Below, in pieces: positions 43,791-47,439 of a stretch of DNA of 64,000 nt. A program made the translations under genes and the position numbers. Numbering within the stretch: position 1 is the stretch's first letter; the number at the start of each line of letters is the position of its first letter. This stretch comes from the human T2T-CHM13v2.0 reference genome, Homo sapiens. The notes beneath the pieces are model-generated. The model worked only from the letters and a program-made list of their open reading frames with translations, ran no database searches and was not told the origin of the DNA. Location of the stretch: the NCBI RefSeq assembly GCF_009914755.1, contig NC_060943.1. One strand, given 5' to 3'.

Positions 43791-45224
43791 ACTCATCTTT
43801 CACCAATATTTTAATCGTTTTATGTCTGCACACTTAAGCATCAAGGACAGGGTCCTGGATGATGATAAGTGCATATTTCAATTTATAAAGTAAAAAATGA
43901 CCATCAGAGTCTAATAAATGATGAATACAGCAACATCATACTTCATAAAATCATTCCAGGTATGTTTGACAAACAAGAAGGTTGCATAGGACCTTCTTGT
44001 GCTACTCATGTGAAGTGCTCTTCTCTCTCATGTTAATCTCAACTCCCAACCTTACAAATACCACATACTCACATATACAGAAAAAGAAAAATTAACTTAT
44101 TTTCATAGGAGGCTGTGATTCACATTTTATTCTATTACATCTTTTCCACATTGCTGTTACAATACTGTTGAAGTGCACCCTCTTTCACCAGAAGAATACT
44201 TTTGTGAACGTGAATAGACTGACACTGGAGAAGACCAGCTCAGCACACTCACTTGAATGATCCCTTTGCTTTTCAGGCAGTAAAAATCGGGGAGTGAAAA
44301 TAAAGTGACTGCGGATTAAGCAAAGAGTTATACATGGAAAAACATTTGTCAATTGTTTGAAGATTACATTGCATGGTCTACAACTTTTAAAATATAAAAT
44401 GCATAGCATAAATGTTGCACAAGAAAGTAGAATAAAAATGATGGAGTTGGCCACAAAGGATAGCTAAAGCTGTACTATAGCAATATAGAAAAATACATAT
44501 TTACTGTCAGAAGAAGGTAACTTGAAGTATTTGAAAGATGTTCTCTAAGAAACTAAAACTATTTTTAGTTTTAGATTCTGTAAAAAATGTTTCTTAAGCA
44601 TTTTTAATTTTCAAAAACATTTGAGTGCATTTTTGTCAGCTTAGTTTCTCTGAAGAATTTAAATATAATAAAGTAATACATATTAAAAATAACTTTTCTG
44701 GCAATAGAGCAGCTTAATTTTTAGATTAAAAAAGTAAAATTTTACACAATTTTATGCTGACCAATTTAATCAAAAGCTTCTTTCTTACAACTTGGAGAAA
44801 TGACACAAAGACTCAACTTTTATGTTGGGTGGGAGAGAAAATGATTACCAGGGGCTAGAAACTTGTTTCACTAATCAATGTTGATTTTTATTGCTATATT
44901 GTCTCAAATTATGTTAATAATAAAATAATGGCCTTGATCCAAAAAATTTTTTACAAACTTATTGCTTCAATCAGCCAAAATATTAACCAAAAGAAGGCAT
45001 AGAAATAGAGGTATTTAACAGTCATAATTTATAGTATAAAATTAAAATGTTTCTAGAAATAAAGAAAGATATATAAACAAATAAGAAAAGGAAAAAAAGT
45101 GGATTCCTCACAATAGGTAGGGTGTGAAATCAACATAAGGGTTCATCAACAGTTGAATGAATTTTAAAAAGTGGTATATTTACACAATGGAATGCTCTTT
45201 ATTCCTTAAAAAGAAAGAAGTCTT

Positions 45225-46007
45225 GGAGGTGGGCTCAGCAGTCTGTGTCTCAGCAAGCCTTGCAGAAATTCTGATGCACACTGAAGTTTGAGCGTCACTG
45301 GAATGGACAGTGTCCAAATGATTGCTGGGTCACCCCACCTATCCTGAATGTCAGGAACATCCCGAGTGAGACTAGTCAGTACATTGTAGCTCTTTCTCCA
45401 GCCACAACCAGAAAGTCTTTGCTTCCCCTTTGCCTTCCACCATGATTGTAAGTTTCCTGAAGCCTCTCCAGCTGTGCGAAACTAGAAAAAGATGCACACC
45501 CAAAAGCCCCATTTGAAGCTTCTAGACAGAAAGCCAAGCATTTGGAGAGTGTCTTTGGACAGTTTTAAACACAACTGTGGAAAAGAAAGCAGCCCTACTC
45601 AGTGTGAAGATGATGAGAATGAAGACCTTTATGATGATCTACTTCCACTTAATAAATAGTGACTTTAGAATCCTTAACACAGCACTCAGCTACCAATGCC
45701 AATGAATAAAATTTTGCATCACTGTTGAAATCTGTTCACCACTCCTTTTGTAGATGTTCTGAGTTGGGTACCAGAAGTCAATTATCTCATTATTAAGATG
45801 GCTTCTAAGGTGATTCATTTTTGTGACACATAATGAGTGTTAGTTGAGGTCTAGCTGTATGCTGAAAAATGCTGATGAAAAATGTTGTCTACAGAGAGGA
45901 TAGTCAACTTATATTAACTGTGAGTTATACTAGGAGCTATACTTAATTCATTTAGACTTTATTTGGTCAGCTTTTTTTATATTTCATAAAAAGAAGAAAG
46001 ATTAAAA
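45225..46007 (+). pseudogene. Candidate processed retrocopy of a spliced non-coding RNA made of exonised repeats (MER5A, MST/THE1, Tigger)
   Basis: TSD AAAGAAGTCTT at 45214-45224 and 46008-46018; A-rich tail 45988-46010; repeat fragments end at splice-site positions. Confidence 0.65.
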
Positions 46008-47439
46008 AAAGAAGTCTTTTTAAATATATATTCTGCTCAAATCACCATTTCCTTTTTTTTCTGATTCAAAGGACTTTTTCAAGATCTTTCAGGGATTATA
46101 TTTTCTTTCACCTTCTATCTGCATTCTCTTTCTTCAGCCAATTGATTAAAAAAGAGATGCAGAGAAGACACATTTGCTTCTCATCCACACATCACTTCCA
46201 CTTGCTATTAGTCATTGTGAGTAGAGCTGAGAATAGCAGCTTTCTAGCATGACAGCAACTTCTCAGAAAAAAGCAACACTCGGAAACAAAACTATAAATC
46301 TTTTCAAAAGCTAATGTATTTTAAGCAAAATAAGCAGATGCATCAATAATAAAATGCTTGTGGTAGAATCGATTTATTTTGTTGATTTCTATTGAGTTCA
46401 GATAAGATTTGACCAAAAGCTAGCAAATATAGAGCAGAAAGAAGAATATTATCTGAAATCAGAATATGGTAAATGAAGTTAATTTGTCAAAAGAAATAAG
46501 AATATTATGACCTCATGCTAATAGTCTCATCTATGGTTGTAAAACATCAAATGCTACTTTTTATTATAAACTGTAGTTCATATAAGTATTCCATTTATAT
46601 CACCCTCTTTCACTATTTCAATGTCTTCTCCACTTTGTATCAGTGGAAAACAGGTCAGCTGCTTCCAGGAAAGCAGGCAATGCTCTTCTTACTTTAACAA
46701 TGATGATGAAGAGCACTTGTTTTGGTGATACTCCCATGCCAAAAACTGTTATTTTGCCTGAAGTACTCTATATTTGTTAATAAAATAAAATTATTAACCA
46801 AGAGGAATTTATCCATTCAAGTTTTATGGAATTTTGGTTACATTTAAGTGTCTCTGACTTTCGTGGAATATTGAAATTTTTATGAATCTAAATAGAGTAC
46901 TATAAATAACCTTTTACTAAAAGACTTTTTGAAGTGGAGTGATATTTATAAAAACTTTTCATAGCATTGAAGAAATGTTTTAACCATGTTCCCAGTAACT
47001 ACTCTGAGCACAGAATTTTCCATTTTTAGAATTCGCTCTGAGTCACTCAGGGGAAATTGATATCTTTACGAATGGGCAAAAAAAGGTGCTGAGTGGAGGT
47101 GCAACACATTGCACATCAATGCTTTTCACATGCAACTACTAGGGTCTTAATTTGATTGAACTCTCATTTGCATAGCTAGACACTTACTGAATCTAGTCAT
47201 ACTATTTTTTGGCAACTAATGCCATGTTTGTTACCCATTAGTTTTATACACTTATTTGCTTGGCTGAAAAAACTTAATCTTCTCTTAATTTACTCTAAAT
47301 TGAGAGACTAGATTTACAGTCTGGGTCTATAATAGTAGTTGAATGTTTTTAATACTATTCTTGGCAAATTCTCATATATTCACATTCAAAACAGATATAA
47401 ATTTTATGAAAAGGAGTTGACAAAAAGTAAAAAATTTCA

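What the first reader, a model, noticed from the sequence alone, without database searches (positions are those of the whole stretch)
45214..46018. Fossil of a spliced non-coding RNA: retrocopy assembled from exonised transposon pieces
Seen: an ~780-bp insert bounded by an 11-bp TSD (AAAGAAGTCTT), preceded on the left by TT|AAAA within an L1M-like 3' fragment, and ending in an A-rich tail. It contains a MER5A end (45225-45300), a ~72-bp MST/THE1 piece (45412-45483) and a ~65-bp Tigger piece (45594-45658), separated by unique sequence. From recalled consensi, the MST piece stops exactly at GAACT|GTGAGT (a commonly used donor), and the Tigger piece runs from CAG|CCTACTC to AATA|GTAAAT (acceptor to donor). 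There is no long ORF. Inference: a processed copy of a multi-exon lncRNA or non-coding isoform, a class that protein-based pseudogene pipelines miss, recording an ancestral primate splice form.
Basis: partly seen in the sequence, partly recalled or inferred. Interest (0 to 1): 0.75.

Follow-up and report, generated by a model that had tools for sequence, protein, structure and literature searches.

The report
Retrocopy of a spliced, probably non-coding RNA

Summary
Window 45225-46007 is an insert flanked by an exact 11-base duplication (45214-45224 and 46008-46018). It ends in a 20-base A-rich tail and sits in an L1 3' fragment just after TTAAAAA.

A search of the window's own genome found the predicted gapped source twice. 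The loci are C7:78198052-78215157 and C1:83302961-83320084, both on the minus strand. Each matches in five blocks at about 90% identity.

The block borders fall at window 45411/45412, 45483/45484, 45593/45594 and 45661/45662. The first three introns are GT..AG in both sources. The fourth has a usable GT but no AG.

Nine of nine older paralogues of the surrounding ZNF duplicon have the unfilled target site. Two younger chr19 duplicons carry the same insert with the same flanks. This means one insertion followed by segmental duplication.

The three repeat-derived pieces are internal parts of longer repeat copies in the sources. They are cut at the transcript's start and splice sites.

The longest sense reading frame is 55 codons and has no Pfam match. 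I could not name the source gene or confirm that it is transcribed.

This is an ordinary L1-made retrocopy with an unusual, probably non-coding parent.

The parts
45206..45213 (+). TTAAAAAG just upstream of the duplicated target. It fits the L1 endonuclease preference TT|AAAA, and the A-run may itself belong to a longer duplication of 15-17 bases.
   Evidence: D3: 14 of 15 bases; the endonuclease consensus is recalled knowledge
45214..45224 (+). Left copy of the target-site duplication, AAAGAAGTCTT.
   Evidence: the target occurs once in 9 of 9 paralogous unfilled sites
45225..45411 (+). Exon 1 equivalent. Base 45225 is an extra G absent from the sources. 45226-45411 matches C7:78215157-78214972 and C1:83320084-83319899. 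The first ~77 bases (to 45301) come from an old dispersed repeat that in the sources extends about 117 bases further upstream.
45412..45483 (+). Exon 2 equivalent (72 bases). It lies wholly inside a dispersed repeat copy that in the sources runs on at least 142 bases upstream and about 82 bases downstream. In the sources the acceptor is AG and the donor is ...AACT|GTGAGT.
   Evidence: 38 of 38 dispersed matches span the exon
45484..45593 (+). Exon 3 equivalent (110 bases), single-copy sequence. In the sources the acceptor is CAG| and the donor is ...GCAAT|GTGAGT. The window copy reads GC where the sources read AT and the two sister copies read AC.
   Evidence: (5 of 5 matches are the 3 chr19 copies and 2 sources)
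45594..45661 (+). Exon 4 equivalent (68 bases, border uncertain by 1). It is an internal piece of a high-copy dispersed repeat that in the sources runs about 85 bases upstream and about 250 bases downstream. In the sources the acceptor is CAG|/TAG|.
   Evidence: 38 of 38 dispersed matches span the exon
45662..45987 (+). Exon 5 equivalent (326 bases), single-copy. The junction with exon 4 is not GT..AG in the present sources. No poly(A) hexamer lies near its end.
45988..46007 (+). Decayed A-rich tail, not templated by the source loci.
46008..46018 (+). Right copy of the target-site duplication, AAAGAAGTCTT.
46019..46022 (+). Scar of a later deletion. About 345 bases of the target L1 3' part are missing here and in the C19:22.10 Mb copy. 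They are present in the C19:23.10 Mb copy and in the paralogues.
45492..45659 (+). Longest sense ORF (55 codons plus stop), running from exon 3 into exon 4. It is open in all five copies but shows no sign of constraint.

Best explanation
An L1-mediated processed retrocopy. A capped, spliced and polyadenylated five-exon transcript was reverse-transcribed at a nick in an L1 3' fragment of a chr19p12 ZNF duplicon. Its exons measure about 186, 72, 110, 68 and 326 bases. The transcript came from the ancestor of the loci now at C7:78.198-78.215 Mb and C1:83.303-83.320 Mb. The insertion left an 11-17 base target duplication and an A tail.

The transcript was most likely a long non-coding RNA assembled partly from transposon pieces. 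It starts inside one repeat, and two of its internal exons are exonised pieces of two other repeats.

The insertion came after the older ZNF duplicons had diverged. It came before the segmental duplications that made the copies at C19:22.10 Mb and C19:23.10 Mb. It also long preceded the chr7/chr1 duplication of the source. The copy itself is most likely inert.

Shown here: intron loss relative to a gapped source, the duplication, the tail, the empty paralogous sites, and the order of events. Inferred: that L1 was the agent, that the source is non-coding, and the absolute dates.
For: Gapped source. One search gives five collinear blocks on the minus strand at both C7 and C1, covering query bases 2-763 of 783 at 89-96% identity. 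The introns are about 812, 14,033, 445 and 1,054 bases.

Splice sites. In both sources introns 1-3 are GT..AG, and two of them have GTGAGT donors.

Insertion hallmarks. There is an exact 11-base duplication, or 14 of 15 extended. TTAAAAA lies upstream. The 20-base A-rich tail is absent from the sources.

Empty sites. 0 of 9 older paralogues (L031-L039, 74-84% identical flanks) hold any insert sequence. 9 of 9 show one copy of the target followed directly by the rest of the L1.

Sister copies. Both share flanks on both sides at 91-93% identity, so there was one insertion and then duplication.

Direction of copying. In the sources, exons 2 and 4 and the start of exon 1 lie inside longer repeat copies that run on into the introns or upstream. 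38 of 38, 38 of 38 and 35 of 35 dispersed matches span the borders. The window holds only the exonic parts.

Order of events. K2P distances are 0.098-0.115 from copy to source, 0.066-0.093 among the chr19 copies, and 0.019 between chr7 and chr1.

Non-coding reading. The longest sense ORF is 55 aa. 0 of 3 ORFs tested match Pfam at E<=1. Differences in that ORF between the window and chr7 are 7 in codons whose amino acid is unchanged against 14 in codons whose amino acid differs. There are no Rfam families in the copy or in 30 kb of the chr7 source.
Against: The fourth junction (45661/45662) is not GT..AG in either present-day source. The sequence before the copied exon 5 ends in CA or CC, and the good CAG acceptor lies 6-7 bases further in.

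None of 16 poly(A) hexamer variants occurs in the last 60 bases of the copy or of either source.

The tail is short and impure, and two sister copies have a run of T inside it.

No RNA evidence or annotation for the source loci could be seen, so its transcription today and its non-coding status are untested. The copy could also be 5'-truncated from a longer transcript, possibly a coding one.

The 55-codon ORF is open in 5 of 5 copies, which leaves a small-protein reading open.

The empty site was shown only in paralogues, not in other primates.

The genome search scores only the best 40 candidates, so further copies could have been missed.
Confidence: 0.9

Rival explanations
1. It is a retrocopy, but of a non-coding isoform, a UTR-only part or a 5'-truncated mRNA of a protein-coding gene, not of a true lncRNA. 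A variant of this reading is that the source encodes a 55-aa small protein.
For: The copy starts in the middle of a repeat with no feature marking a transcription start, so 5' truncation cannot be excluded. The 55-codon ORF is open at the same length in 5 of 5 copies. No annotation of the source could be consulted.
Against: An extra G at the 5' end, absent from the sources, fits a copied cap and hence a full-length copy; this is inference from recalled knowledge. There is no Pfam hit for 3 of 3 ORFs. Most differences in the ORF change the amino acid, 14 against 7. 3 of 4 sense ORFs of 20 aa or more in the copy are also kept at the same length in both sources, so at this divergence retention is expected by chance. 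Between chr7 and chr1 the exons differ by 14 of 762 bases, the same as the 98% identity of the whole 30 kb, so there is no visible constraint.
Confidence: 0.15
2. It is a DNA-level duplicate of the chr7/chr1 locus that later lost its introns by deletion. Alternatively, chr19 is the original and the chr7/chr1 'introns' are later insertions.
For: The fourth junction is not at canonical splice sites, as a deletion might leave it.
Against: Three of four gaps are removed to the base at GT..AG. A non-templated A tail and a target duplication bound the insert. Homology to chr7/chr1 stops at the transcript's ends. 9 of 9 paralogous sites are empty. In the sources the repeats run on across the exon borders into the introns, so the gapped arrangement is the original one.
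Confidence: 0.01
3. It is a chance neighbourhood of separately inserted, decayed transposon fragments with unique sequence between them.
For: Three stretches are indeed repeat-derived.
Against: The whole 783 bases is absent as one block from 9 of 9 paralogues. It is collinear with one spliced source. The fragment borders are splice sites, not repeat ends.
Confidence: 0.01

Closest known systems
L1-mediated processed pseudogenes and retrocopies of protein-coding mRNAs
   Same: It is intron-less relative to a multi-exon source, has a 3' A tail and an 11-17 base target-site duplication, and inserted at a TT|AAAA-like site. It has no promoter of its own, and it was later carried along by segmental duplication.
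   Different: The source has no ORF over 55 aa and no protein-family match, so protein-homology pipelines would not find it. The hub's RefSeq table has no row for 45214-46018. Two reviews and analyses of retrocopies, of which I read only passages (PMC5470649 and PMC7290577), treat retrocopies as copies of mRNAs of genes. In the passages shown they do not discuss lncRNA parents.
Long non-coding RNAs built from exonised transposons
   Same: In the source, the start of exon 1 and all of exons 2 and 4 are pieces of dispersed repeats. These repeats supply splice sites, including a GTGAGT donor inside the LTR-like repeat.
   Different: What lies in the window is a DNA copy of the RNA, not the gene. 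I have no evidence that the source is an annotated or expressed lncRNA. That TE-rich lncRNA exons are common is recalled knowledge, not tested here.
Retrocopies amplified by segmental duplication (for example the equid LCORL retrocopies, PMC10249811; seen in a search listing and abstract only)
   Same: One retrotransposition event was followed by DNA-level duplication of the copy with its flanks, giving three copies on chr19.
   Different: The parent here is probably non-coding, and the copies show no sign of function.

Membership tests
L1-mediated processed retrocopy | Collinear with a multi-exon source, with the introns precisely missing | tested here: met
   Five blocks match at C7 and C1. 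Introns 1-3 are GT..AG in both sources. Intron 4 is removed, but not at GT..AG.
L1-mediated processed retrocopy | 3' poly(A) tail not encoded at the source | tested here: met
   The 20-base A-rich stretch at 45988-46007 is absent from both sources. It is decayed and impure.
L1-mediated processed retrocopy | Target-site duplication flanking the insert exactly | tested here: met
   An exact 11-mer, or 14 of 15 extended. The target is single-copy in 9 of 9 paralogous sites.
L1-mediated processed retrocopy | Insertion at an L1 endonuclease-type site (TT|AAAA) | tested here: met
   TTAAAAAG lies at 45206-45213, directly before or inside the duplicated target. The consensus itself is recalled.
L1-mediated processed retrocopy | Empty (pre-insertion) site in related genomes | tested here: inconclusive
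   Shown in 9 of 9 paralogous duplicons of the same genome. Orthologous sites in other primates could not be searched with these tools.
Long non-coding RNA (as the parent) | No ORF of 100 aa or more and no protein-family similarity | tested here: met
   The longest sense ORF is 55 aa in the copy and in both spliced source models. 0 of 3 ORFs match Pfam at E<=1.
Long non-coding RNA (as the parent) | Evidence that the source is transcribed and spliced in this form and has no coding exons elsewhere | not testable with these tools
   No annotation or RNA data for C7:78.20 Mb or C1:83.30 Mb were available. The retrocopy itself is indirect evidence that the spliced RNA once existed in the germ line.
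Named repeat families (MER5A, MST/THE1, Tigger) | Similarity to the family consensus | not testable with these tools
No repeat library was on hand. Only 'dispersed, multi-copy' was shown.

The most novel reading that the evidence does not exclude
The copy may be a dated record of a transposon-assembled five-exon RNA. That RNA starts inside one repeat and has two exonised repeat pieces. It already had this exact splice pattern when the insertion happened, tens of millions of years ago. Seven of its eight splice-site dinucleotides are still intact in both present-day source copies.

That would point to a long-maintained gene. In the boldest version it encodes a 55-aa small protein whose C-terminus and stop codon come from a transposon. 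That ORF is open in all five copies.
Probability: 0.08. Interest if true: 0.5.

Novelty: new member of a known kind. Interest (0 to 1): 0.3.

Why it matters
The element itself is an ordinary product of L1 activity and is probably inert.

Its value is as an example. Retrocopies of non-coding, transposon-rich transcripts cannot be found by pseudogene pipelines that start from proteins. Repeat masking also shows them only as scattered fragments. Even so, they preserve an old splice form of an RNA.

Here the copy shows that a five-exon RNA from the ancestor of the chr7/chr1 loci was spliced and polyadenylated in the germ line. This happened before three chr19p12 ZNF duplicons separated. The copy therefore also gives a marker for ordering those duplications.

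The case also shows that such copies can be recognised from raw sequence, by spotting repeat pieces that end at splice-site motifs.

Tried and rejected
- Rfam: no family reached the gathering score in 30 kb of the chr7 source. The window region gave only one sub-threshold match, at E 0.43. The source is therefore not an evident snoRNA or miRNA host.
- Pfam on three ORFs gave nothing.
- A poly(A) signal search with 16 hexamer variants gave nothing in the copy or the sources.
- I tried to place junction 4 at canonical sites in four ways: donor AATA|GTGAGT with the downstream CAG, the upstream ACAG acceptor plus deletions, an AT-AC reading, and a U12-like reading. Each needs extra indels or does not fit the motifs, so I rejected them. 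The junction stays unexplained (note).
- Literature. Four searches for phrases such as 'lncRNA retrocopies', 'retrocopies of lncRNA' and 'retroposed lncRNA' found no paper in the held library that catalogues retrocopies of lncRNAs. 'Retrocopies of lncRNA' gave 0 papers. The six-phrase search gave 5 papers, all of them hits on 'lncRNA pseudogenes' used in another sense. This shows only that these phrases are rare in that library, not that the class is undescribed.
- I could not name the source gene. I considered guessing an hg38 gene from recalled coordinates and rejected that as unreliable.
- I considered using the open 55-codon ORF as evidence of coding and rejected it.
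Full report
**What is in the window.**

- The exact 11-mer AAAGAAGTCTT lies at 45214-45224 and again at 46008-46018. Extended, 14 of 15 bases match.
- The left copy follows TTAAAAAG (45206-45213), within sequence that looks like the 3' end of an L1. The L1 identification is my recall.
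- The 783 bases between the two copies (45225-46007) end in a 20-base A-rich stretch (45988-46007).

**The source.**

I searched the window's own assembly with the 783 bases. Of the 42 rows returned:
- 4 rows belong to three chr19 loci: the window itself, C19:23101035-23101802, and C19:22098970-22099527 plus 22100658-22100870.
- 5 rows form a collinear minus-strand series on C7 (78198052-78215157).
- 5 rows form the same series on C1 (83302961-83320084).
- 24 rows are dispersed copies of query bases ~366-449.
- 4 rows are dispersed copies of query bases ~163-260.

The two gapped series cover query bases 2-763 at 89-96% identity. Over about 29 kb the C7 and C1 loci are 98% identical to each other, so they are a young segmental duplication of one source.

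**Exon borders and splice sites.**

| Block | Window coordinates |
|---|---|
| Exon 1 | 45226-45411 |
| Exon 2 | 45412-45483 |
| Exon 3 | 45484-45593 |
| Exon 4 | 45594-45661 (±1) |
| Exon 5 | 45662-45987 |

In both sources:
- Intron 1 (about 812 bases) is ...CCAG|GT...AG|AAAGTC.
- Intron 2 (about 14,033 bases) is ...AACT|GTGAGT...CAG|.
- Intron 3 (445 bases) is ...GCAAT|GTGAGT...CAG| (TAG| on C1).

The last two bases of exon 3 read AT in the sources, AC in both sister copies and GC in the window. These are ordinary substitutions and do not shift the junction.

The first three are exact.

The fourth junction is 3-4 bases further on and does not fit.
- On the donor side the sources read AATAGTGA|GTATAT. 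A stronger AATA|GTGAGT lies 4 bases upstream.
- On the acceptor side the copied sequence begins 6-7 bases before the good CAG acceptor. It is preceded by CA or CC, not AG.
- All three chr19 copies share this junction.

I could not explain it. Possible causes are an acceptor that has since mutated in the source lineage, a non-canonical splice, or a small rearrangement at insertion.

**Direction of copying and the repeat pieces.**

I searched the genome with the source's exon 4 and exon 2 together with their intronic flanks. In each search, 38 of 38 dispersed matches (40 rows minus the two sources) span the whole exon and run on into both flanks. With the source's exon 1 start and its upstream flank, 35 of 35 dispersed matches span the point where the copy begins.

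So in the source these are ordinary, longer repeat copies, while the window holds only the exonic parts. This rules out separately decayed local insertions. It also rules out the idea that chr19 is the original and the chr7/chr1 'introns' are later inserts.

Exon 3 is single-copy: 5 of 5 matches are the three chr19 copies and the two sources. Exon 5 and the second part of exon 1 matched only those five loci.

The first ~77 bases are an old repeat: 23 of 28 matches lie elsewhere at about 80% identity.

The family names (MER5A, MST/THE1, Tigger) could not be tested, because no repeat library was available. They agree with my recall.

**Empty sites and sister copies.**

The flanks belong to a ZNF-cluster duplicon with many paralogues on chr19 and chr7. 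I fetched nine of them.
- 0 of 9 contain any of the insert. Homology stops at window 45217-45225, and where it resumes early it does so at 46023.
- 9 of 9 show a single copy of the target followed directly by the continuing L1 3' sequence.

These are paralogous empty sites.

The two chr19 sister copies share both flanks with the window at 91-93% identity. So there was one retrotransposition event, then segmental duplication.

The C19:23.10 Mb copy (L002) still has the L1 remainder after the right target copy. The window and the C19:22.10 Mb copy both lack about 345 bases there, leaving a scar at 46019-46022. The C19:22.10 Mb copy also carries a 1.13-kb insertion at the point matching window ~45783.

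**Order and rough age.**

| Comparison | K2P distance |
|---|---|
| chr19 copies to spliced source models | 0.098-0.115 |
| Among the three chr19 copies | 0.066-0.093 |
| chr7 to chr1 | 0.019 |

The insertion therefore precedes the chr19 duplications, and both long precede the chr7/chr1 duplication.

With recalled neutral rates of about 1-2.2e-9 per site per year, this puts the insertion at roughly 25-50 Myr. That date is an inference, not a measurement.

One inconsistency remains. The shared deletion groups the window with the 22.10 Mb copy, but the distances put the window closest to the 23.10 Mb copy. Gene conversion or rate noise could account for this; I did not resolve it.

**Coding or not.**
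- The longest sense ORF is 55 codons (45492-45659), running from exon 3 into the repeat-derived exon 4.
- It is open at the same length in all five sequences.
- Between the window and chr7, 14 differing bases lie in codons whose amino acid differs and 7 in codons whose amino acid is unchanged.
- It has no Pfam match; none of the 3 ORFs tested matched at E<=1.
- 3 of 4 sense ORFs of 20 aa or more in the copy are likewise kept in both sources, so staying open at this divergence means little.
- Between chr7 and chr1 the exons differ at 14 of 762 bases. That is the same as the surrounding 98% identity, so no constraint is visible.
- No Rfam family is present.

A non-coding parent is the best reading. 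It rests on absence of evidence, though, because no annotation or RNA data for the source could be consulted. The copy may also be 5'-truncated. An extra G at 45225, absent from the sources, fits a copied cap and a full-length copy, but only weakly.

No poly(A) hexamer (16 variants tried) lies in the last 60 bases of the copy or the sources.

**Comparison with what is known.**

The element meets the tested hallmarks of an L1-made processed retrocopy. Only the parent is unusual: short, rich in transposon pieces and apparently non-coding.

The hub's RefSeq table has no row for it. Four literature searches and passages of two papers (PMC5470649 and PMC7290577) turned up no catalogue of lncRNA retrocopies in the held library. 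That shows only that my phrases are rare in that library.

**Verdict.**

It is a new member of a known kind, of modest interest.

Noticed in passing
window 45661-45668; sources L021 (C7) and L024 (C1): The exon 4/exon 5 junction of the copy does not map to GT..AG in either source. A canonical CAG acceptor lies 6-7 bases inside the copied sequence, and a GTGAGT donor lies 4 bases before the junction. All three chr19 copies share it.
   Followed up: partly
window 45492-45659 (+): A 55-codon ORF that ends at the repeat-derived stop codon is open at the same length in all 5 copies (3 on chr19, plus the chr7 and chr1 spliced models). Most differences change the amino acid, and there is no Pfam hit.
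   Followed up: partly
window 46019-46022; L002:2288-2754: About 345 bases of the target L1 3' part, directly after the right target duplication, are deleted in the window and in the C19:22.10 Mb copy. They are kept in the C19:23.10 Mb copy, where the stretch is 467 bases because of an extra piece of about 120 bases. The shared deletion conflicts with the distances, which place the window closest to the 23.10 Mb copy.
   Followed up: partly
L003:2059-3188 (C19:22099528-22100657): A 1.13-kb insertion interrupts the sister retrocopy at the point matching window ~45783. A few bases (AATTG) are repeated at its two ends. I did not identify it.
   Followed up: no
L021-L023 (C7:78196001-78226000) versus L024-L026 (C1:83300901-83330900): The two source loci are 97.7-98.3% identical over about 29 kb and the similarity reaches both ends of what I fetched. 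This is a young inter-chromosomal segmental duplication whose extent I did not map.
   Followed up: no
L033:1200-2270 (C19:22507200-22508270): One older paralogue of the target site has about 1.1-1.4 kb of extra inserts inside the L1 part. One block begins with a run of T, and two blocks look Alu-like by recall.
   Followed up: no
window 45225: The copy begins with a G that is not in either source, where the homologous base is T. The sister copies read G and A at this position. It may be a copied 5' cap or just a substitution.
   Followed up: no
window 45928-45987 and the source 3' ends: No poly(A) signal hexamer (16 variants) lies within 60 bases of the copy's 3' end, in the copy or in either source.
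   Followed up: partly
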